Of a stretch of 64,000 nucleotides of DNA, positions 54,930-63,877 are shown piece after piece (position 1 is the stretch's first letter; every line of letters starts with the position of its first letter). Location of the stretch: positions 1,002,851 to 1,066,850 of the forward strand of contig CAWHAZ010000005.1 in the NCBI GenBank assembly GCA_963827475.1, given 5' to 3'. Both the position numbers and the translations under genes were made by a program. This DNA comes from an uncultured Chloroflexia bacterium. Its GTDB lineage: Bacteria > Chloroflexota > Limnocylindria > QHBO01. Below the pieces are notes generated by a model. It was not told where the DNA came from. It was given only the letters and a program-made list of their open reading frames with translations, and did not search any database.

Positions 54930-54961
54930 TTGAGGGGAGACCGCCAGGGCCCCGGCGCCCA

Positions 54962-55016
54962 ACGACCACCGCGGCTCGCGAGGCCCCCAGAGAGGTCGAT
55001 ACTGCCCGCGAGACCC
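54962..55016 (+). repeat. Array repeat R0 (degenerate; left extension only)
   Basis: ACGACCACCGCGGCT...CCCAGAGAGGTCGAT matches the left part of R2/R5/R9. Confidence 0.6.
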
Positions 55017-55039
55017 AATTAGCTTGAGGCGGAGCCGAA

Positions 55040-55693
55040 ATGAAATCCAACCCTTTGATGGCCGTGTCCGGGTGGGAGGCGTTCATGCACGGCGTCTTCG
55101 CGATCGCGGTCACGCTCCTGGTGCTCGATATTCGCGTTCCCGACGCCGCCGAGATTGACAGCGGGGCGGCGCTCATCGACGCCCTCGTCGAGGAGATGCC
55201 GCGTTATCTCGCCTACGCATTCGGCTTCCTCTTCGTGGGCACCTACTGGCTCGCTACGCACCGATTCAATGGCTGGATGCGTGGCGTCGACCATTGGGGC
55301 CTCGTCTTGGGGCTCCTGTACCTGATGGTCATCTCGGCGGTACCGTTCGTGACTGCGCTGCTCGCTGAGTACATCGGCTTGGACGACGGTCGGGACAAGG
55401 TTGGGCTCGTCGTCTTCGCCTCCTGGCAGTTGGTCCTCTCGCTCTTGGCCATCGCCAACTTTCGTTACGGAGCGCACAGAGGGCGACTCCTCAAGCCGAC
55501 GATCGAGGAGGCGGCACTACGGACGTATTTCCGCTTCGCCATCATCGGTCCAGTGACCTGGATCGCTGCGATCCTGACCGCTCTCTTTATTGGTAGCGCC
55601 GCGACGTTGATCCTGATGGCGGTCAGCCTGGTGATCTTCCTTGTGGTCGAGCTACCCGCGCCGGTCGGTGACCAGGAGGGCGCCGCGACCTAG
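55040..55693 (+). CDS. TMEM175/DUF1211 family membrane protein
   Basis: EAFMHGVFAIAVTLLVLDI; YWLATHR; PFVTALL. Confidence 0.85.
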   Translation: MKSNPLMAVSGWEAFMHGVFAIAVTLLVLDIRVPDAAEIDSGAALIDALVEEMPRYLAYAFGFLFVGTYWLATHRFNGWMRGVDHWGLVLGLLYLMVISAVPFVTALLAEYIGLDDGRDKVGLVVFASWQLVLSLLAIANFRYGAHRGRLLKPTIEEAALRTYFRFAIIGPVTWIAAILTALFIGSAATLILMAVSLVIFLVVELPAPVGDQEGAAT

Positions 55694-55719
55694 GACGTCG
55701 GCTCGGGAGGGGGCGGACA

Positions 55720-55885
55720 TCACATCGCGACCACGGCTTCCAGCGGCTCGTCTGAGGCGCCGTTGACCGGGGTTTCGGTCTCGTCCTGCGCGGCCTGGGC
55801 CTCCTTGGCGTATTCCTTCTTGCCGCGGCCGGAGAGCATCTCAAGCTGACTGACCACGACCTCGGTCTTCCAGTGCCTCTTGCGC
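55720..55885 (-). pseudogene. 3' remnant of a single-stranded DNA-binding protein gene
   Basis: Reads KRHWKTEVVVSQLEMLSGRGKKEYA...EPLEAVVAM*, resembling the last OB strands plus acidic tail of SSB; no 5' half. Confidence 0.65.
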
Positions 55886-56001
55886 CACTGTAAGCATCTG
55901 CCACACCGATTCGTAGCGGCGCCCTTGACCGTTATCTATTGGCGCGTCCATCTTGGGCCCATCAATTCGCTGCGATCACGATGGAGGAGGGCTCGACCCC
56001 A

Positions 56002-56685
56002 ATGGAGCGTGACGACCCCGCCTACGAGGGCCAGCGTGAGTACACCCCGCTCTTCCTCAAGATCTACGACCCCTTGATTCTTGGCTTCTTCATGCCAGTC
56101 GTGTGGCGGTGCCCGACGACTCGCCTCGTGGAGGGATACCGGGAGCACCTCGGCCACCGGCACCTCGACGTGGGTCCGGGTACTGGCTACTTTCTGGCGC
56201 GAGCCGGTATGCCGGACGGCAGCCCTGTCACCCTCCTCGACCCCAACGTGCACGTCCTCGATCACGCATCCCGGCGGTTGAAACGCCTGGACCTCACGAC
56301 CATCGAGGCCGACGTGCGCAAACCACTTCCCGTCGACGGGCTGTTCGACTCCGCCGCGCTCAATGGCGTGCTCCATTGCCTGCCAGGACCGCTCCTTCGC
56401 AAGGCTGCTGCCGTTGCCAACGTGGCCGCCGTCCTCGCTCCGACTGGCGTCCTCTTCGGTGCATCGATCCTCGGGCTTTCCGGGCGACATACCTGGTTGT
56501 CTCGGAGCATTCTCGAGGCCAACAACCGGCGGGGCACCTTCGACAACCTCGGCGACACCCAGGCGGGCCTCGGCGAGATCCTCGAGGCATCGTTCGAGCG
56601 GGTGGAGCTGGAGACTGTCGGCTCAATGGCGATCTTCGCAGCCACGAATCCGCGCATGAAGCCGTCGACTGGCATGCCACGCTAG
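56002..56685 (+). CDS. Class I SAM-dependent methyltransferase
   Basis: HLDVGPGTGYFL, VLHCLPG; GGAGGAGG RBS. Confidence 0.88.
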   Translation: MERDDPAYEGQREYTPLFLKIYDPLILGFFMPVVWRCPTTRLVEGYREHLGHRHLDVGPGTGYFLARAGMPDGSPVTLLDPNVHVLDHASRRLKRLDLTTIEADVRKPLPVDGLFDSAALNGVLHCLPGPLLRKAAAVANVAAVLAPTGVLFGASILGLSGRHTWLSRSILEANNRRGTFDNLGDTQAGLGEILEASFERVELETVGSMAIFAATNPRMKPSTGMPR

Positions 56686-57050
56686 CTACCGCGACCTGGC
56701 GACCTCGGGCGCTTCCGCCACCAGGCGACGATGCCGATGATCGCCCCGACCAGGAGAATCCCGAGGCTGATCCCGACGAACCCCACGGTGCCCGAGCTGA
56801 TGTCGCAGGTCGGGTCAGACGAGCAATTCAACGCGACGCCAACCATCAACCAGAGCCACACCGCCCCGATCCCGCTGACCCAACCGGACACGAACACCAA
56901 CTGCCATCGACCCACGATTCCGAAGGCGAGCGCGAGCCCTGCGATCAGGTACGCGATCAGCCCAACCACGAAGAAGGCGTAACCAAGGGCCAGCCCGAAG
57001 GCGAACCCCGCGAGCCAGCGCACCCATCCACGACTCCAGAGCTGGATCAT
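56682..57050 (-). CDS. Small multi-TM membrane protein
   Basis: Four hydrophobic segments and a basic C-terminus. Confidence 0.7.
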   Translation of the reverse strand: MIQLWSRGWVRWLAGFAFGLALGYAFFVVGLIAYLIAGLALAFGIVGRWQLVFVSGWVSGIGAVWLWLMVGVALNCSSDPTCDISSGTVGFVGISLGILLVGAIIGIVAWWRKRPRSPGRGS

Positions 57051-57100
57051 GTTTGGAGCCGCTCCATTTCTCGAGGATACCGAGACAATCGGATCGCGAG

Positions 57101-57153
57101 CTCCCGACGCCCACCTCGGATCCTGTAGGCTCCCCGAGAGGTCGAATCGCCGG
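57101..57153 (+). repeat. Array repeat R1 (left extension, truncated before the core)
   Basis: CTCCCGACGCCCACCTCGG...GGCTCCCCGAGAGGTCGAATCGCCGG, close to R2. Confidence 0.85.
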
Positions 57154-57201
57154 CTGCGCAGCTTTCTTCGTGCCCTCCCGTCGGGGTACCGTAGCTCGAG
57201 C

Positions 57202-58137
57202 ATGGCGCAGACAGGCATCGCCCTGGCCTTCGTGGCGGTCGTCCTTGCCGCCTGCACGAGTGGTAGCGCGTCCCCGACCCCTTCGGGATCGGACGCTAGC
57301 CCGGCGGTACCCGAACCCTCCCCCAGCGCCTCGGCGAGCGCACCCGAATCCACGTCAGCAAGCCCACTCGCGGGTTCCTGCAGCGGGAACATGCTGGTGG
57401 TGGATTGCTTTGGCCGGGTGACCGCCGACGCGGTCAAGCTGCGCACGGGGCCGGGCCTCGACGCACCTCAGGTCCTTGAGCACGTGGCGGATGGGTCACC
57501 CGTCCCGGTGTTCGTCGGTCGAACCAATGGACGCGAGCAGGTCTACGTCATCGACGGGCCGCGTCAGGCCGACGGCCTCGACTGGTACCAGGTGGGGGTC
57601 ATGAACACCGGGCAGGAGCGGTCAGTTGGGCCGCTGTACGTCGGCTGGGCGGCGAGTGGCGACGGAACCGATCCGTGGCTCGTCCCCGAGGATCTGTGCC
57701 CACCAGCCGGCCCGGTCGAACTCGCCGACATGACCTATGCCCGGTGGGACTCGACGTGGGCGATCCACCTCGGTTGCTTCCGTGATCAGGTGCTCACCCT
57801 CCGCGGCTGGTTCCCGATTCTGCCGCCCGGATCAGGGTTCGAGATTCCCTATGACGTGGACGGCAGCTGTTTCGCGGAGCCCGCGTTCCTGCAGTGCGGC
57901 CCGTACAACAAGGACATTCGCACGAGTGAGATGGGCTTCTTTGATGAGAGAAACACCGACCGCCTGAACTTCACGGTGGACCCAGCCACGGGCCTTGAGC
58001 TACCTGAGCGTGGCCAATGGATCGAGATCACTGGCTCGTTCGACCATCCGGCTTCGCAGCAATGCGGCCCCGAGGCCGGGGGCATCCTGCACTGTCGTGC
58101 CGTGTTCGTCGCTACCGCTGTTTCGGTCAGTAACTAG
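57202..58137 (+). CDS. Cys-rich lipoprotein with an SH3b-like segment
   Basis: Lipobox LAAC; VKLRTGPG...DGLDWYQV...GWAA. Confidence 0.75.
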   Translation: MAQTGIALAFVAVVLAACTSGSASPTPSGSDASPAVPEPSPSASASAPESTSASPLAGSCSGNMLVVDCFGRVTADAVKLRTGPGLDAPQVLEHVADGSPVPVFVGRTNGREQVYVIDGPRQADGLDWYQVGVMNTGQERSVGPLYVGWAASGDGTDPWLVPEDLCPPAGPVELADMTYARWDSTWAIHLGCFRDQVLTLRGWFPILPPGSGFEIPYDVDGSCFAEPAFLQCGPYNKDIRTSEMGFFDERNTDRLNFTVDPATGLELPERGQWIEITGSFDHPASQQCGPEAGGILHCRAVFVATAVSVSN

Positions 58138-58158
58138 CGGCTGGCACCTCGACGCCGG

Positions 58159-58246
58159 CTCCCGACGCCCACCTCGGTTCCCTAGGCTCCCCGAGTTGTC
58201 GATTCGCCGCGAGTCCGGCCGGGGCGAACTATGCGTTATGGGAGAT
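58159..58246 (+). repeat. Array repeat R2 (full)
   Basis: Left extension plus core GCCGGGGCGAA-CTATGCG-TTATGGGAGAT. Confidence 0.9.
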
Positions 58247-58257
58247 GAGCGCAGTTC

Positions 58258-58689
58258 TCAGCGTCGTTCGGCCTCGCTTCGGGCAAGCGCCTCAAGGATC
58301 GCAGTGATGACCTCGGTCGTGGAGGCCCCAGGCAGGTCCAGACGGATCGTCGCCGACTCGGCTATGAGCGGGTTGTACCGTCCGGCCGTGGCGGCAGCAT
58401 CGCGGGAGTCGGTCCGGACCAGCACGATCGGCTTCTGGCTCCGGTACGCGTAGCCGACCTCCCAGCTCGTGCCAGAGTCCGGGTCAGGCCCGTCCATGAT
58501 CGCCACCAGCCCATCGGCCCAGTCGATCCCGCCGACGTCCCTTGCGAAGATGCCGGCGGCGTCCCGGCCGGGCTCCTGCTCCTGCGGCACGAAGATCTCG
58601 TATCCGGCCGCTCGCAGGCCCGCGACGACCTCAGCGTTCCAGGCGCGCTCGGGCGTCGTGAACAGGGGTCCCGCGAAGTAGAGCTTCAT
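58258..58689 (-). CDS. Nucleoside 2-deoxyribosyltransferase family protein
   Basis: KLYFAGPLF, DVGGIDWAD, DSGTSWEVGYA. Confidence 0.9.
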   Translation of the reverse strand: MKLYFAGPLFTTPERAWNAEVVAGLRAAGYEIFVPQEQEPGRDAAGIFARDVGGIDWADGLVAIMDGPDPDSGTSWEVGYAYRSQKPIVLVRTDSRDAAATAGRYNPLIAESATIRLDLPGASTTEVITAILEALARSEAERR

Positions 58690-58766
58690 CGGGCGAGTAT
58701 CGCGGACGGCACTCACCCGCGACAGTCGCGGTGCCGCCCAGCCACTAGCCATCGTTCGGTTGATCC

Positions 58767-58795
58767 GCCGGGGCGAACTTGCGTTTATGGGGTAC
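58767..58795 (+). repeat. Array repeat R3 (core only)
   Basis: GCCGGGGCGAA-CTTGCGT-TTATGGGGTAC. Confidence 0.85.
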
Positions 58796-58826
58796 GCGGC
58801 CGGCGGGGTGTCTATCATCGGGTGGG

Positions 58827-58906
58827 GCGGCGATAGCTCAGCTAGGAAGAGCGCGGCTCTGCTTCGGCAACCGAGGTCGCCGGATCGTTCCCGGCTCGCC
58901 GCGCCA
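58827..58906 (+). ncRNA. tRNA-like RNA with a non-canonical anticodon arm and encoded CCA
   Basis: Acceptor GCGGCGA/TCGCCGC, D arm GCTC-AGCTAGGAA-GAGC, variable loop AGGTC, T arm GCCGG-ATCGTTC-CCGGC, G-CCA end; TATCAT at 58813. Confidence 0.8.
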
Positions 58907-58921
58907 TTCACGAGTCGGGTC

Positions 58922-58950
58922 GCCGGGGCGAATATCCGCGATTGGGGTTT
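58922..58950 (+). repeat. Array repeat R4 (core only, right arm degenerate)
   Basis: GCCGGGGCGAA-TATCCGC-GATTGGGGTTT. Confidence 0.75.
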
Positions 58951-59031
58951 GAGCCGGGACCCGTGGGACTCCCAGCGGCGCTTGTGCCACCGTCAAGTTC
59001 GGCCCAGGGTGGCTTCACTGGCCGCGCGACG

Positions 59032-59844
59032 CTAGCCCGGACCCATGCGGAGGCTTACCACCTCGGTCGTGTCGTGCTTGCCCTTGAGCTCCAGGTTGCG
59101 CGGCTCGAGGTTCGGGTCCAGGCCGGCCGCGACGGCGGCATCGGTCGAGACGATGATCTCGCCGGTCGCGGCCTGGGCCGCCAGGCGGGCGGTGGTGTTG
59201 ACGACGTCACCGACCACCGTGATCTCGACGTGGCCCCCCTCGCCGATGGCCCCGAACCACACCTTCCCGGTATGGACTCCGGCGCCCACCGGCACCCACG
59301 GCCCGGCCGGATCGGTGTGGCCGGTGGCTGCCAGCAGCTCCTCCGCCGCCGCAACCGCGCGCCCGGCGTGATTCTGCCCCAGGAAAGGAGGAAAGGCCGC
59401 GACCAGCTCGTCCCCCACGAACTTGTCGACGATGCCGCCCTGCGCGAATACCGCCTTTGCCGCAACGGTGTAAAAGCGGTCGAGGGTCGCGCGGAACGCG
59501 GTCGGGGTCATGCCTTCGGCCAGCGTGGTCGATCCGCGGATATCCGCGAACAGCAGCGAGGCGTCGACTTCTGCCCCGCCGTGATGCTTCAGCAGCACGT
59601 TCTCGCACGAGGTGCACACGGTCGGGTTGACCCGCGACTGACGCTTGCCAAAGAGTCGAAGGACGCGCCCGCCGGGGCCCGCGAACGGGAATGCGCACAA
59701 CTGACAGCGGGGATTCGCCGGAATGCGGCTGATGATCGGCCGGACGGAGCGGAATGACGAGTCGGGGCTCTCGAGGTAGTCGCGCCAGAACTGCTCTTCA
59801 GATGGATCGCTGGATGCTGCCGGTGGTGCGCCTCCGCTTCTCAC
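59032..59844 (-). CDS. Class III adenylate/guanylate cyclase with an N-terminal CxxC...CxxC domain
   Basis: LLFADIRGST, VDKFVGDE, GDVVNTTARL; CQLC and CTSC. Confidence 0.92.
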   Translation of the reverse strand: MRSGGAPPAASSDPSEEQFWRDYLESPDSSFRSVRPIISRIPANPRCQLCAFPFAGPGGRVLRLFGKRQSRVNPTVCTSCENVLLKHHGGAEVDASLLFADIRGSTTLAEGMTPTAFRATLDRFYTVAAKAVFAQGGIVDKFVGDELVAAFPPFLGQNHAGRAVAAAEELLAATGHTDPAGPWVPVGAGVHTGKVWFGAIGEGGHVEITVVGDVVNTTARLAAQAATGEIIVSTDAAVAAGLDPNLEPRNLELKGKHDTTEVVSLRMGPG

Positions 59845-59880
59845 CGCCGCATTATCCGGGGTCCCGAGGAATCAGGTACT

Positions 59881-59964
59881 TCCGACGCCCACCGCGGCTA
59901 CCGCGGGTCCTATGAGGTCGATCGCCCGGGAACTACGCCGGGGCGAACCTAGCTAATGGGGGGT
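59881..59964 (+). repeat. Array repeat R5 (full)
   Basis: CCGACGCCCACC...GAGGTCGATCGCC...GCCGGGGCGAA-CCTAGC-TAATGGGGGGT. Confidence 0.88.
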
Positions 59965-60064
59965 ATGGTGCCGCGACTTCTGAGGACGGGACGCCAGCCG
60001 CTCGCCATCCGAGGATGGCGCTGCCACGGAGCACCGGCCCGACGCCTTCGGCCTCCTAGCGGCG

Positions 60065-60883
60065 CTAGCCGTTAGGCCAACCCCGGATGACCTGATCCAC
60101 GAATTCCGCGATGTCGTTGGCGAGTCTTTCGGGTTGCTCCCACAGGACCAAGTGGCCTGTCGATTCATAGGTCACCATGCGCGATCGCGGAATCGCAGCC
60201 GCGAGCTTGAGCTCCTCGCCGTGCGGTAGCCCCTTGTCACGGTCACCCCAGATGATGAGCGTCGGCGCCTGAATCGTGCCGGTCTCAGTCGGCACGGCGG
60301 CTTCAACAAGACCCGCGAGGGCAAGCTTCCACACGCGTGCCGGCATTCGCACCCCGTCATCGATGCGGTCCGCCAGGTACTCCGCCGGGACCGGCTGGTG
60401 GAACTCGAACCAGTCCAACGAGGACCGAACCCATTCGCGATCGATCGGATCGGTCAGACGGTCCACCTCGTCCGCGAACGGGGGGCGCCCCCCATGAAGA
60501 CTGCGTGGCGTGCCTACCAGGACGAGCCCCAGCGTGCGCGATGGCTCATCGACGGCAAATCGCTGGGCCACGTACCCACCGCTCGAGCTGCCCACCAAGA
60601 TGCAAGGCCCGAGTCCCAAGGTGTCCTGGAAGGCGATCAGATCCGCGACGAAGTCGGCCATTGCGTAGCCATCCGCTGGCTTGTCGGCGTCGCCGTGGCC
60701 GCGCTGATCCATCGCGAAGGCGTGAACGGTGCGCGGCAGAAGTGGTAGCAGACGGCTAAAACTGCCCCGCGACTCGCCCCACGCGTGAATGAGGAGCAGC
60801 GGCACTCCGGACTTGCCACCCTCCTCCATGTATGGGAGGGAGACGCCAGTCGAAAGGCGAGTGATCTCCACGCTGCTCACCAT
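60065..60883 (-). CDS. Alpha/beta hydrolase
   Basis: LLIHAW, DQRGHG, GSSSGG, GHLVLWEQP. Confidence 0.9.
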   Translation of the reverse strand: MVSSVEITRLSTGVSLPYMEEGGKSGVPLLLIHAWGESRGSFSRLLPLLPRTVHAFAMDQRGHGDADKPADGYAMADFVADLIAFQDTLGLGPCILVGSSSGGYVAQRFAVDEPSRTLGLVLVGTPRSLHGGRPPFADEVDRLTDPIDREWVRSSLDWFEFHQPVPAEYLADRIDDGVRMPARVWKLALAGLVEAAVPTETGTIQAPTLIIWGDRDKGLPHGEELKLAAAIPRSRMVTYESTGHLVLWEQPERLANDIAEFVDQVIRGWPNG

Positions 60884-60955
60884 GGAGTTGTACGCGGCAC
60901 CCATTGCGGGCGCAAGGCCGGCGACGCCAGGCGCTCGCCATCCAGCGGCAGATCG

Positions 60956-60984
60956 GCTGGGGCGAATATCGCGCCGTGGTGACA
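60956..60984 (+). repeat. Array repeat R6 (core only)
   Basis: GCTGGGGCGAA-TATCGCG-CCGTGGTGACA, similar to the R7 core. Confidence 0.75.
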
Positions 60985-61014
60985 GGTACGACGGGTTCCT
61001 GGGACGCTTCGCGT

Positions 61015-61401
61015 TCAGCCGGGTCCGCGAAGGAAGCCATCGAAATAATCTGGCTGAACAGTCAACTTGACCCCCGACGCCGAGGCAGCCTCGCGCATCT
61101 GCTCGAGCGCGGCATTGCTAGGCGTTCCATAGATCTCCCAGCCGAGGGGTACCAGGACCTCAAATGCCACTCGGCTTCTCTCCTCCGATCCGTGGCCATG
61201 AAGGTCCATCGACTCCGCATCGGGGAAGACGTGGACTATCGTCGCCTCGCTCCCGTTAGGGCTGAGGTAGAAGAGGTACGCGAGGGTGCGGGGCTTCTCC
61301 GCGTGCAGCTGCTGGGTAACTGTGTGTGCTAGGTCCTTGTAGGCCTTAAGCATGCGCTGCTTGACCCGGAAGTGGCTGATGAAGACGATCGGGTCAGCCA
61401 T
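61015..61401 (-). CDS. Dimeric alpha/beta barrel (ABM-like) protein
   Basis: FISHFRV...PRTLAY...IVHVFPDAESMDLH; GAGGA RBS; paralog of 62499..62900. Confidence 0.75.
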   Translation of the reverse strand: MADPIVFISHFRVKQRMLKAYKDLAHTVTQQLHAEKPRTLAYLFYLSPNGSEATIVHVFPDAESMDLHGHGSEERSRVAFEVLVPLGWEIYGTPSNAALEQMREAASASGVKLTVQPDYFDGFLRGPG

Positions 61402-61420
61402 TTGTCACCGTCGATTCCTC

Positions 61421-62239
<819 letters not shown>

Positions 62240-62313
62240 TGCCAAATAGTAATGGCCCCTACGCCGGCGCTCGACCGACCGGGGTCGCCTGCACGCTACC
62301 AATACGCAGCCCG

Positions 62314-62400
62314 CTCCCCACCGTCCATCTCGGCTTCCGCGGGTGCCTAGAGGTCAATCGCCGGGAGTCCCGCTGGGGCGAATGTCGCGTTGTGGTAACA
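62314..62400 (+). repeat. Array repeat R7 (full)
   Basis: ...AGAGGTCAATCGCCGGGAGTCCC-GCTGGGGCGAA-TGTCGCG-TTGTGGTAACA. Confidence 0.88.
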
Positions 62401-62498
62401 GAGCGCGTCGGGTTCTAGGCGGTCTGCAAGCCACGTGGCAGCGTAGCCTCAGCTGATAGCCAAGCCTGCGCGTGCGCGCCGAGCGGTGGCATCGCTCG

Positions 62499-62900
62499 CT
62501 AAACGTCCATTTCTGACGGTGCTGACGGCCGCAGAAAGCCCGACGTGAACTCCGGGTAGACCCTCAGGGGAACGCCCGCCTGCTTTGCTGCCGCTTCGAG
62601 CGCCGCCCGCGTCGCTGCGCCGGGACTTCCGTAGATCTCCCAGCCGAGAGGCTCGAACAGCGGCATCGCCCGCGGACTGTGGGCTTTGGCTCGCTCAGCA
62701 TGAATGTCCATCGCGTCGGCATCGCCGAACACGTGGATGATGGTCAGCTCGTCGCCCGGTCCGAGGAATTGGAGGTACACGAGGGTCCGCGGCCAATCCG
62801 CCTCGATCCTTGGCGTCACTTCGGCGGCCAGCTGCTGGTAGGCGTCGCGCTGGCCAGGCCTGATGCGGAAACGACTGATGAAGGCAACCGGTTCGGCCAT
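62499..62900 (-). CDS. Dimeric alpha/beta barrel (ABM-like) protein
   Basis: FISRFRI...PRTLVY...IIHVFGDADAMDIH; paralog of 61015..61401. Confidence 0.75.
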   Translation of the reverse strand: MAEPVAFISRFRIRPGQRDAYQQLAAEVTPRIEADWPRTLVYLQFLGPGDELTIIHVFGDADAMDIHAERAKAHSPRAMPLFEPLGWEIYGSPGAATRAALEAAAKQAGVPLRVYPEFTSGFLRPSAPSEMDV

Positions 62901-62982
62901 GCTTCATGATAACGGCCGGGATCGGGTGCACCGCCCGATCCCTTCCGGATTAGCCACTCATTGGCCGCTTACGGACACATTG

Positions 62983-63011
62983 GCAGGGGCGAGTATTGAG
63001 TTATGGGCGTT
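62983..63011 (+). repeat. Array repeat R8 (core only)
   Basis: GCAGGGGCGAG-TATTGAG-TTATGGGCGTT. Confidence 0.7.
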
Positions 63012-63183
63012 GTTCTGCTGTCGCACCGGCGGTATCCGGTGGCGCTTAGGCCACCGTCAGGATCTGCCCACGCACTGGCGATCTAGACGGCAGCCTCGTC
63101 TCGCAGAACGAGCACCTCGGGCGCCAGCGGTCCCCGCCCTCGGCTGGCGTCGCCAGTAGCTCGACGGCGCATGTCCGGGCCAG

Positions 63184-63750
63184 TCAGTCAGCCCGCTCCA
63201 GGACGAGCGGATCCGGGCAGTAGGAGCCCGGGTCCGGGCAGCGCGGTCCGAGCACCATCGGTTCGCGATCCTCACGCAGGAAGATCTCACCCGCGGCGCC
63301 GAACTCGATGAGCATCCGCAGAGGGGAGTAGGGTGTCGCCGGGAGGCCCCCTGGCCCCAGCATCAAGATCTCCCCGGTGATCACGAAGTCGGACCCGATC
63401 ACACCGCTGAGGCCCTGAACCTGGTCCGGCCGCTGACCGATGGGTCGGGTCTCGACGTCCTCGACCTGCCCATCGCCCCACACGCAGTCTCCCTGCGTGC
63501 GAATCCACCAGGTCATCGGCTCTCCGACGCGGTCGACTTCGATCCACTGCCCGTCGAGCACGATGCGCTCCCCGTCCGGACCGCGCAGGTCCATCGCCTC
63601 GCACCCGGGCGGCAGGCCGCTCAGTGCGGCCTCCGAGGGGCTTGCGGAGGGCTGGTCCGATGGCGACGGCGACGTCGACGGTCCGCAGCCGGACATCAAC
63701 AGCAGGAGCCCAAGCAAGGGAAGGGTTCGAAATCCGGCGAGATTCAGCAC
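63184..63750 (-). CDS. Hypothetical lipoprotein
   Basis: Lipobox MSGC, Ser/Pro linker, four further Cys; TATCTT 6 nt before GTG. Confidence 0.75.
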   Translation of the reverse strand: MLNLAGFRTLPLLGLLLLMSGCGPSTSPSPSDQPSASPSEAALSGLPPGCEAMDLRGPDGERIVLDGQWIEVDRVGEPMTWWIRTQGDCVWGDGQVEDVETRPIGQRPDQVQGLSGVIGSDFVITGEILMLGPGGLPATPYSPLRMLIEFGAAGEIFLREDREPMVLGPRCPDPGSYCPDPLVLERAD

Positions 63751-63790
63751 CGACGGAAGATAACCGCTGCGCCAGGCGGGCGAGCCCAGC

Positions 63791-63877
63791 CCCCGACGCC
63801 CACCCGGGCTACCGCGCGGGCCCCGAGAGGCCGAATCGCCGGGAGTCCGGCTGGGGCGAACCTACGTTATGGGGGTA
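63791..63877 (+). repeat. Array repeat R9 (full)
   Basis: CCCCGACGCCCACC...GAGAGGCCGAATCGCCGGGAGTCCG-GCTGGGGCGAA-CCTACG-TTATGGGGGTA. Confidence 0.9.

What the first reader, a model, noticed from the sequence alone, without database searches (positions are those of the whole stretch)
58827..58906. Anticodon-less tRNA mimic carried as its own cassette
Seen: the 155-bp R3-R4 interval has no credible ORF but folds into a cloverleaf. It has a perfect 7-bp acceptor stem, T8A9, a 4-bp D stem with the GG loop, an AGGTC variable loop, a perfect 5-bp T stem, a G discriminator and encoded CCA, with a TATCAT -10 hexamer just upstream. Two deviations look designed rather than decayed. The anticodon arm (CGGCTCTGCTTCGGCAACCG) is best drawn as a bulged stem closed by a cUUCGg tetraloop, so it has no 7-nt anticodon loop. 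The T loop is ATCGTTC, swapping canonical T54/A58 to A54/T58. Known: tmRNA and bacterial Y RNAs (YrlA) use tRNA-like domains without an anticodon. Inference: a non-decoding tRNA mimic (decoy, aminoacyl donor or regulatory RNA) that moves as a cassette.
Basis: partly seen in the sequence, partly recalled or inferred. Interest (0 to 1): 0.85.

Follow-up and report, generated by a model that had tools for sequence, protein, structure and literature searches.

The report
Scarred arginine tRNA gene in island
This is a foreign arginine-tRNA gene with three extra bases in its anticodon arm, most likely a damaged leftover in a variable gene island and not a purpose-built tRNA mimic.

Summary
The 80-nt cloverleaf at 58827-58906 (+) is real. 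Its acceptor (7 bp), D (4 bp) and T (5 bp) stems are perfect, and it has G73 and an encoded CCA. Neither "designed" deviation needs design. The AUCGUUC T loop is a common natural variant: it occurs in 119 ordinary tRNAs on viral contigs and in tRNA-Arg/Gly/Pro genes of a sister family. Of 141 public tRNAs with the same acceptor stem, G73 and CCA, 129 are tRNA-Arg. The element also has A20 and a CUUCGG loop core. It therefore reads as a tRNA-Arg(UCG) gene with 3 extra nt at the 5' edge of the anticodon loop. That is where islands of this genome cross over in tRNA genes. It is a singleton: no copy in 60 relatives, and none matching a pattern for its anticodon arm plus T loop in the genome or metagenome collections. 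No reads or RNA cover it. It is the only content between two half-repeats of a genus-specific repeat, but mobility is not shown and no integron features were found. Best reading: an acquired, non-decoding tRNA relic (0.55). A functional mimic is not excluded.

The parts
58827..58906 (+). 80-nt tRNA-Arg(UCG)-derived cloverleaf with encoded CCA
   Evidence: ARAGORN. tRNA-Arg model R1 68.0 bits, full length 1-77. Stems checked pair by pair.
58854..58873 (+). 20-nt anticodon arm CGGCTCTGCTTCGGCAACCG, 3 nt longer than canonical. It contains the CUUCGG core of a tRNA-Arg(UCG) loop.
   Evidence: Sequence. R1 aligns stem CGGCU/AACCG with one non-standard pair and a loop 3 nt too long. Competing folds.
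58856..58863 (+). Zone that holds the 3 extra nt. Placement is ambiguous: leaving out any triplet that starts at element positions 30-35 gives a 77-nt tRNA-Arg(tcg) call.
   Evidence: In-script test with ARAGORN.
58884..58890 (+). T loop ATCGTTC (A54/U58 instead of U54/A58)
   Evidence: Sequence. Same loop in 119 ARAGORN-called tRNAs on viral contigs. Same or near-same loop in tRNA-Arg/Gly/Pro of a sister family.
58813..58818 (+). TATCAT, a possible -10 hexamer 8 nt before the 5' end. It has no -35 partner.
   Evidence: Sequence. Promoter scan found none.
58751..58795 (+).
   Evidence: the repeat finder families D4 and D10, motif at 58770. Contigs of related soil strains stop matching at 58777-58779.
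58907..58950 (+).
58258..58689 (-). Left neighbour: nucleoside 2-deoxyribosyltransferase-like gene (143 aa)
   Evidence: Pfam PF05014, 81.8 bits. Found in 1 of 17 same-genus genomes, there without the repeat or a tRNA.
59032..59844 (-). Right neighbour: class III nucleotide cyclase gene (270 aa)
   Evidence: Pfam PF00211, 41.9 bits. PADLOC PycC model, 60.1 bits.

Best explanation
The element is a laterally acquired tRNA-Arg(UCG)-type gene lying inside a repeat-punctuated, hypervariable island. Its acceptor, D and T arms are intact. Its anticodon arm has 3 extra nucleotides at the boundary between the 5' stem strand and the loop, plus one C-A mismatch. The RNA, if made, therefore cannot form the 5-bp stem and 7-nt loop needed for decoding. 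Instead it can collapse into a UUCG-capped hairpin, in which U33 and the anticodon U34-C35-G36 form the tetraloop, or into a competing hairpin. It is most likely a non-decoding relic (pseudogene). Shown: the tRNA origin, the Arg-type acceptor stem and discriminator, the natural status of the T loop, the position of the extra bases, and the uniqueness of the locus. Inferred: that it was acquired from a lineage or phage that uses A54/U58 T loops. Also inferred: that the extra bases are a scar of aberrant site-specific recombination. Islands of this genome and genus cross over at exactly that place in tRNA genes. That the element is inactive is also an inference.
For: Arg origin. Of 141 matches in 140 public genome and metagenome stretches to the same acceptor stem (pair 7-66 left free) + TAGCTCAG + G73 + CCA, ARAGORN tRNA-Arg (ACG 55, TCT 38, TCG 35, CCG 1), 7 Thr and 5 Asp. 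The D loop has A at position 20 and the arm holds CUUCGG, as in this genome's own tRNA-Arg(tcg), its nearest tRNA at 61 of 80. The nearest public sequences are tRNA-Arg(UCG), 65 of 80. Leaving out any 3 nt that start at element positions 30-35 gives a 77-nt tRNA-Arg(tcg) call. Model R1 aligns all 77 positions with the surplus in the loop. In 401 genomes of the same class, 7 of 92 genomes of sister family f2 have it in tRNA-Arg (TCG, ACG, TCT), Gly(CCC) and Pro(CGG). It was found in 0 of 153 other genomes of the window's own family. All 44 tRNAs of this genome that pass Rfam's threshold have canonical T loops. Redundant: a normal tRNA-Arg(tcg) and a normal class II tRNA-Ser(gct) exist elsewhere. 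Singleton: full-length match in 1 of 61 genomes, the window's own, and one copy in the genome. A pattern for the GCTTCGGC core of its anticodon arm followed by AGGTC and the variant T loop found 0 hits in genome contigs and 0 in metagenome contigs. Crossover position: 3'-half duplicates starting at tRNA positions 30-36 flank islands at tRNA-Pro(GGG), His, Leu(UAA) (two) and Gly(CCC) in this genome, and at tRNA-Cys in G015.
Against: All 16 pairs of the other three stems are perfect and CCA is kept, while both lesions (the insertion and the C-A mismatch) fall in the one arm that a non-decoding RNA would not need. This pattern also fits selection on the tRNA body, though with two events it is weak. 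No att-type duplicate of this element exists in the assembled genome, so the recombination-scar step has no direct support. The repeats beside it lie on the same strand as the element. In the five clear cases seen, repeats lie on the opposite strand to the anchor tRNA, so it is a passenger, not the anchor. R1 was trained mostly on sequences chosen for the same acceptor stem and is not Arg-specific: other tRNAs score 49-75 bits, so the 68 bits say 'tRNA' and not 'Arg'. Inactivity is inferred only, because no RNA data cover the locus.
Confidence: 0.55

Rival explanations
1. It is a functional, non-decoding tRNA-Arg-like RNA: transcribed, processed to a CCA end, and used as a decoy, ligand or aminoacyl carrier. 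The anticodon is locked in a stable hairpin so that it stays off the ribosome.
For: The body is intact: 16 of 16 stem pairs, G18 G19, a G15/C48 combination, G53/C61 and CCA. Both lesions are confined to the anticodon arm. TATCAT lies 8 nt upstream. The neighbours include two cyclases that match Pycsar PycC models, so a defence-type island is possible. One unrelated tRNA-like gene on a viral contig (L156:2045-2130) also has a long anticodon arm capped by GC-UUCG-GC, though it was found with a pattern that required that motif.
Against: It is a single sequence with no homolog in the 60 relatives searched by BLAST, and patterns aimed at its arm and T loop found no second copy in the genome, metagenome or viral collections. 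No covariation test is therefore possible. No promoter or terminator was found by the scan. No RNA evidence exists. The UUCG fold is not the best fold of the arm. The T loop, cited as design, is an ordinary variant.
Confidence: 0.2
2. It is an assembly or consensus error. The true gene would be a normal 77-nt accessory tRNA-Arg(UCG), and the 3 extra bases are not in the DNA.
For: The genome is a metagenome-assembled draft of 7 contigs, and the locus lies in a repeat-rich region 5 kb from a contig end. No read-level check was possible. Removing 3 nt restores a tRNA-Arg(tcg) call.
Against: The extra bases are not in a homopolymer. The flanking genes have intact frames with full-length Pfam matches. 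Even without the 3 nt the stem keeps a C-A mismatch.
Confidence: 0.1
3. It is a decoding tRNA with an expanded anticodon loop: a 10-nt loop, or ARAGORN's 7-nt loop with anticodon GCU and a 9-nt variable region.
For: ARAGORN returns a tRNA-Ser(gct) call. Frameshift-suppressor tRNAs with one extra loop base are known (listing and abstracts).
Against: ARAGORN's stem has 3 good pairs plus a G-A mismatch, and position 37 is U. There is no long variable arm, which the genome's four other, genuine tRNA-Ser genes have (87-92 nt). Rfam's tRNA model does not report it at E<=10. I know of no 10-nt decoding loop (recalled, not searched exhaustively).
Confidence: 0.03

Closest known systems
Bacterial tRNA-Arg(UCG) genes
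   Same: Same acceptor stem type, G73 and CCA (129 of 141 such public tRNAs are Arg). Same A20 in a 9-nt D loop, CUUCGG loop core and AGGUC variable loop. Identity is 65 of 80 to the nearest.
   Different: The anticodon arm is 20 nt, not 17. The T loop is AUCGUUC. It scores 68 bits on the tRNA-Arg model, against 78-89 for this genome's five real tRNA-Arg genes. Rfam RF00005 does not report it.
tRNA genes and fragments at tRNA-integrated genomic islands (crossover in the anticodon loop; the sublocation classes are recalled from Williams 2002, not read here)
   Same: This genome has islands flanked by a tRNA and a duplicate of its 3' half that starts at tRNA positions 30-36. The element's lesion sits at that same position, and it lies inside an island-like array.
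   Different: It is a full-length copy, not a 3' fragment. No duplicate partner was found. The neighbouring repeats have the wrong orientation for it to be the anchor tRNA.
tRNAs with the A54/U58 T loop (viral contigs; tRNA-Arg/Gly/Pro of sister family f2)
   Same: Identical GGAUCGUUCC T arm core.
   Different: Those have normal anticodon arms and ordinary anticodons.
YrlA (bacterial Y RNA) and tmRNA tRNA-like domains
   Same: tRNA-like acceptor, D and T elements without a decoding anticodon loop.
   Different: YrlA scores 16.7 bits against a gathering score of 69, aligned on the D arm only. No Ro/TROVE gene was found in the genome. The real tmRNA is at C4:161303-161660, 114.7 bits. There is no long Ro-binding stem and no tag-peptide frame.
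Integron gene cassettes
   Same: Single-gene units in one orientation separated by a structured repeat, in a variable region with patchily distributed genes.
   Different: The inverted pair reads TTCGCC...GGCGAA, which is GTT-like first and AAC last, the reverse of attC (attC consensus recalled). The only two PF00589 genes lie more than 330 kb away. The repeat sits at a fixed short distance before the next start codon and not after the previous stop.

Membership tests
Canonical tRNA (Rfam RF00005) | 7-bp acceptor stem, D arm with G18 G19, and a T arm closed by G53-C61 | tested here: met
   all 16 stem pairs are Watson-Crick.
Canonical tRNA (Rfam RF00005) | 5-bp anticodon stem closed by a 7-nt loop with U33 and a purine at position 37 | tested here: not met
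   The arm is 20 nt. The best model alignment gives 4 standard pairs plus 1 mismatch and a loop 3 nt too long. ARAGORN's 7-nt alternative has a weak stem and U37.
Canonical tRNA (Rfam RF00005) | Reaches the family gathering score (29 bits) | tested here: not met
   Not reported at the gathering score, at E<=10 in 501 nt, or at E<=10 genome-wide, where 44 other tRNAs score 47-73 bits. Filters may contribute to this.
Canonical tRNA (Rfam RF00005) | U54-A58 reverse-Hoogsteen pair in the T loop | tested here: not met
   It has A54/U58. The same swap occurs in 119 ordinary tRNA calls on viral contigs and in 9 tRNA genes of 7 sister-family genomes, so it does not by itself exclude function. The canonical pair is described in PMC7912444 (passages seen).
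tRNA-Arg identity set (A20, C35, G/U36, A/G73; recalled from the E. coli literature) | A20 and G73 | tested here: met
   D loop AGCUAGGAA and discriminator G. 129 of 141 tRNAs with this acceptor stem and G73 are Arg.
tRNA-Arg identity set (A20, C35, G/U36, A/G73; recalled from the E. coli literature) | C35 and G36 presented in a normal anticodon loop | tested here: inconclusive
   UCG is present, but inside a 10-nt loop or a UUCG tetraloop. Charging by ArgRS is not testable with these tools.
YrlA / bacterial Y RNA | Rfam RF02553 gathering score, and an rsr (Ro, TROVE) gene in the genome | tested here: not met
   16.7 bits against 69. PF05731 gave 0 matches in the 90%-complete genome.
tmRNA | tRNA-like domain plus a tag-peptide reading frame; Rfam RF00023 | tested here: not met
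   ARAGORN with -m found none here. The genome's tmRNA is at C4:161303-161660.
Integron cassette | attC site (R''...R' with AAC...GTT) at the cassette's 3' end, and an IntI integrase with attI | tested here: not met
   Repeat anatomy. The only PF00589 genes are at C5:698864 and C5:726955. The array runs off the contig end, so an integrase beyond it cannot be excluded.
Mobile unit of any kind | The same unit found in another place or genome | tested here: not met
   No full-length match in the 60 relatives. The viral, genome and metagenome collections were scanned only with exact patterns for parts of the element, and none returned a second copy. Related soil contigs diverge at 58777-58779, so a boundary lies there.

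The most novel reading that the evidence does not exclude
The RNA is made and kept by selection as an anticodon-less tRNA-Arg look-alike carried in a defence-type island. The intact body with A20, G73 and CCA would still engage tRNA-binding proteins, such as a tRNA-Arg-directed nuclease, ArgRS or an arginyl-transfer enzyme. The UCG anticodon locked in a UUCG hairpin would keep it out of translation. It could then act as a decoy or sensor.
Probability: 0.12. Interest if true: 0.7.

Novelty: new member of a known kind. Interest (0 to 1): 0.3.

Why it matters
If the main reading holds, this is an ordinary by-product of island traffic at tRNA genes. Its value is as a caution: two features that looked engineered are a natural T-loop variant and a 3-nt lesion. 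Two side results may matter more. First, the A54/U58 T loop recurs widely in viral-contig tRNAs and in apparently housekeeping tRNA-Arg genes of one bacterial family. My one full-text search for A54 + U58 + tRNA + T-loop returned no paper. Second, this genus carries arrays of single genes separated by a conserved, structured ~66-90-nt repeat in tRNA-anchored islands, with no integrase in sight. If the minority reading holds, it would be a new class of non-decoding tRNA mimic derived from tRNA-Arg.

Tried and rejected
tRNA-Ser(GCT), ARAGORN's label, is rejected. The stem is weak, position 37 is U, there is no long variable arm, and a real 92-nt tRNA-Ser(gct) exists at C2.

YrlA and tmRNA are rejected.

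A classical integron is rejected on repeat anatomy and the lack of a nearby integrase. The nature of the repeat stays open. RNAalifold on 31 copies gave no consensus on either strand because the flanks align poorly. Rfam had no match to it at E<=5.

An att-site duplicate of the element was sought and not found.

The ORF 58258-58911 (-) that overlaps the element is rejected as coding. The Pfam match and the G007 ortholog both start at the ATG at 58689.

Viral relatives with the same acceptor stem were not found. There were 3 chance hits and no tRNA for the 3' half, and 0 hits for the 5' half.

CUUCGG plus the variant T loop on viral contigs returned only two tRNA-Pro(CGG).

Sequencing runs gave nothing on the element. 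The best holder had 0.26 of the words. After laying four runs (contigs only), no contig lies on 58781-58854 or 58929-59002. One X2 contig touches 58855-58891 at depth 3.7, probably another tRNA's T arm. This gives neither read verification nor expression evidence, and it says nothing about absence.

Literature: searches for A54/U58 T loops and for tRNA-like integron cassettes returned 0 papers. Two broader searches gave listings and abstracts only. I saw passages of PMC7912444. PMC165963 (Zagryadskaya 2003) is not held. Williams 2002 is recalled, not read. Supplements were not consulted.

Taxon: only a weak hint of Actinomycetota, from an atlas look-up of a UvrD-like helicase.

Full report
WHAT IS THERE. 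Window 58827-58906 (+) reads GCGGCGA TA GCTC AGCTAGGAA GAGC G CGGCTCTGCTTCGGCAACCG AGGTC GCCGG ATCGTTC CCGGC TCGCCGC G CCA. ARAGORN calls exactly these coordinates. It is the only tRNA call in the 64-kb window. All 7 acceptor pairs, 4 D pairs and 5 T pairs are Watson-Crick. The label tRNA-Ser(gct) is mechanical. It rests on a stem of three good pairs plus a G-A mismatch, U at position 37 and a 9-nt variable region. The genome also has a normal 92-nt tRNA-Ser(gct) on contig C2.

Rfam reports nothing at gathering scores in the window. At E<=10 in 501 nt it gives no tRNA match, only YrlA at 16.7 bits against a gathering score of 69, aligned on the D arm. Run over the whole genome, RF00005 reports 44 tRNAs at 47-73 bits and does not list this element even at E<=10. 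The element is nevertheless not a chance cloverleaf. A tRNA-Arg covariance model built here (R1, from alignment A1 of 52 sequences) scores it 68.0 bits (E 6e-16) over all 77 positions. The next best match in 14 kb scores 13.2 bits.

THE T LOOP IS A NATURAL VARIANT. ARAGORN of the 120 as tRNAs with ordinary anticodons: Ile-GAT 78, Met 9, Thr-TGT 7, Asp 5, Lys-TTT 5, Pro-CGG 3, Asn 3, Lys-CTT 2, Ile-TAT 2, and one each of His, Ala, Thr-GGT, Pro-TGG and Gly-TCC.

A slightly looser pattern (GGATCGTKCC) was run over 401 genomes of the window's class. It matched 8 genomes: the window's own and 7 of 92 in sister family f2. It matched 0 of 153 other genomes of the window's own family and 0 of 137 in family f3. 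The nine sister-family genes are tRNA-Arg(TCG) x2, Arg(ACG) x3, Arg(TCT) x1, Gly(CCC) x2 and Pro(CGG) x1. In genome G181 the two variant-loop genes are the two best matches to the tRNA-Arg model, and nothing else reaches 75 bits. I infer that they are the working copies.

Every genuine tRNA of the window's own genome has a canonical GTTCRA-type loop. The A54/U58 swap is therefore foreign to this family but ordinary elsewhere, and it is often found on tRNA-Arg. It is not evidence of design. It is evidence of lateral origin.

THE BODY IS OF THE ARG TYPE. A scan for the same acceptor stem (pair 7-66 left free), TAGCTCAG, G73 and CCA, with any interior of 45-61 nt, found 77 genome stretches and 63 metagenome stretches. 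Among the 141 matches, 129 are called tRNA-Arg (ACG 55, TCT 38, TCG 35, CCG 1), 7 Thr(CGT) and 5 Asp. The element's D loop has A at position 20. Its arm contains CUUCGG, the loop core of this genome's own tRNA-Arg(tcg), which is its nearest tRNA in the genome at 61 of 80. The nearest public sequences are tRNA-Arg(UCG) genes at 65 of 80.

R1 aligns the arm as stem CGGCU/AACCG with one non-standard C-A pair and a loop three bases too long. In a script, leaving out any triplet that starts at element positions 30-35 turned the ARAGORN call into a 77-nt tRNA-Arg(tcg).

Two cautions apply. Most of R1's training set was chosen for the same acceptor stem. R1 is also not Arg-specific. This genome's five real tRNA-Arg genes score 78-89 bits, but other tRNAs in three sister genomes score 49-75. 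The 68 bits therefore say "good tRNA body, damaged". The Arg assignment rests on the acceptor census, A20, G73 and the loop core.

THE ARM. The constrained optimum is a different hairpin, positions 35-51, pairing GCUUCGG with CCGAGGU, at -35.2. That hairpin consumes the variable loop. The unconstrained optimum is not a cloverleaf, and the z-score against shuffles is only -1.46. In the UUCG drawing the tetraloop is made of U33 and the anticodon U34-C35-G36. No fold gives a normal anticodon loop, so non-decoding is the reasonable reading. The specific drawing is not established.

CONTEXT. The window is the last 64 kb of contig C5 of a 1.92-Mb, 70% G+C, 7-contig, 90%-complete assembly. It is probably Actinomycetota, though the hint is weak. 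From about 54.9 kb to the contig end runs a series of copies of a repeat. Its conserved core is about 66 nt (CCGGCTCCCGACGCCCACCTCGG...CCGAGAGGTCGAATCGCCGGGAGTCCGG). Some copies continue through GGGGCGAAC and GTTATGGGGG.

Between copies lie single minus-strand genes. These include a nucleoside 2-deoxyribosyltransferase-like gene, two class III cyclases that also match Pycsar PycC models at 60 and 48 bits, an alpha/beta hydrolase, and several ORFs without a family. The element lies on the opposite strand, alone between two half-copies 155 bp apart. In that descriptive sense it is "its own unit".

The repeat is specific to the genus. It was found in 13 of 17 same-genus genomes and 16 of 41 genomes searched. 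It is often clustered, at contig ends and near tRNA genes.

Mobility of the unit is not shown. The 80 nt have a full-length match only in the window's own genome among 61 genomes, with three 23-30-nt T-arm hits elsewhere. There is one copy in the genome. A pattern for the GCTTCGGC core of the arm followed by AGGTC and the variant T loop found nothing in either large collection. The left-hand gene occurs in 1 of 17 same-genus genomes at 67% identity, there without the repeat or any tRNA. Contigs of related soil strains match the left gene and stop matching at 58777-58779, inside GGGGCGAAC. A variable boundary therefore lies there.

The repeat is not an attC by inspection, because its inverted pair reads TTCGCC...GGCGAA. 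The genome's only two PF00589 genes lie at 699 and 727 kb on C5, more than 330 kb from the locus, which sits at about 1,061.7 kb.

A LINK TO ISLAND INTEGRATION. This genome holds several islands flanked by a tRNA gene and a direct copy of that tRNA's 3' part. For tRNA-Pro(GGG), at 746853-746929, the 47-nt perfect copy is at 751813-751859, enclosing four repeat copies. The other cases are tRNA-His, tRNA-Leu(UAA) with two copies, and tRNA-Gly(CCC). In G015 a 1.3-kb insert sits in tRNA-Cys, with the duplicate starting at the first loop base.

The duplicates start at tRNA positions 30-36, that is, at the anticodon loop. This is where the element has its surplus bases. I infer that an aberrant exchange at this site is a plausible source of the lesion. 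There is no direct evidence, since the element has no duplicate partner. The neighbouring repeats lie on its own strand. In the five clear cases they lie on the strand opposite the anchor tRNA. The element is therefore a passenger of the array, not its anchor.

VERDICT. The best explanation is an acquired tRNA-Arg(UCG)-type gene with a 3-nt lesion at the island crossover position, now a relic (0.55). The rivals are a functional mimic (0.2), an assembly error hiding a normal accessory tRNA-Arg (0.1) and an expanded-loop decoder (0.03). What keeps the mimic alive is that both lesions fall in the one arm such an RNA would not need, while 16 of 16 other pairs and the CCA are intact. With a single sequence and no reads or RNA over the locus, this cannot be settled here.

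Noticed in passing
window 54956-63875 (copies near 54956, 57099, 58156, 58751, 58907, 59879, 60940, 62320, 63788); also G000:C5:747012-750734 and C5:901356-901423: Genus-specific repeat with a conserved core of about 66 nt. The outer arms CCGGCTCCCG/CGGGAGTCCGG and the inner arms ACCTCGG/CCGAGAGGT are complementary. The centre is a variable 6-bp palindrome (CCGCGG, CTGCAG or CCTAGG). It separates single accessory genes and was found in 13 of 17 same-genus genomes. There is no Rfam match and no nearby integrase. Its nature (recombination site, leader or terminator) is unresolved.
   Followed up: partly
G000:C5:746853-751859; C5:580443-581154; C5:947337-958910; C6:11103-13933; L010:601-2036: Islands or islets flanked by a tRNA (Pro-GGG, His, Leu-UAA twice, Gly-CCC; Cys in G015) and a direct copy of its 3' part starting at the anticodon loop. 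The 90%-complete genome shows only two PF00589 recombinase genes (C5:698864 and C5:726955).
   Followed up: partly
viral loci L035-L154; L309-L318 (sister-family genomes G041, G069, G132, G181, G196, G261, G270): A T loop with A54/U58 (AUCGUUC or AUCGUGC) recurs in ordinary tRNAs. There are 119 calls on viral contigs, mostly Ile-GAU. It also occurs in tRNA-Arg/Gly/Pro genes of one bacterial family, where they look like the working copies. A full-text search for A54 + U58 + tRNA + T-loop found no paper.
   Followed up: partly
L156:2045-2130 (-), next to tRNA-Ile(aat) at L156:1966-2041: An 86-nt tRNA-like gene on a 90.9-kb viral contig. It folds as a cloverleaf whose anticodon arm is a long stem with an internal loop, capped by GC-UUCG-GC. 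ARAGORN gives tRNA-??? (acgg). It was found with a pattern that required GCTTCGGC, so ascertainment is biased.
   Followed up: partly
window 59032-59844 (-) and 61421-62302 (-): Two class III cyclase genes in the array match Pycsar cyclase (PycC) models at 60.1 and 47.9 bits. Each is followed by a small gene of another or no family, so these may be cyclic-nucleotide defence pairs.
   Followed up: no
G000:C5:417943-418025, C6:47050-47143, C7:145354-145446: Three further ARAGORN calls (83-94 nt) lack CCA and a T-loop consensus, and RF00005 does not report them. They are probably false positives in this 70% G+C genome.
   Followed up: partly
G000:C5:901049-901073 (-): A 25-nt match (96%) to positions 7-31 of tRNA-Ser(gct) lies about 280 nt from an isolated copy of the repeat. 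This is tRNA debris beside the repeat.
   Followed up: no
G000:C2:11255-11330 (-): ARAGORN reads the genome's CGY-type tRNA-Arg with anticodon GCG, not the usual ACG (RF00005 69 bits, R1 82.7 bits). No tRNA-Arg(ACG) was called in the assembly.
   Followed up: no
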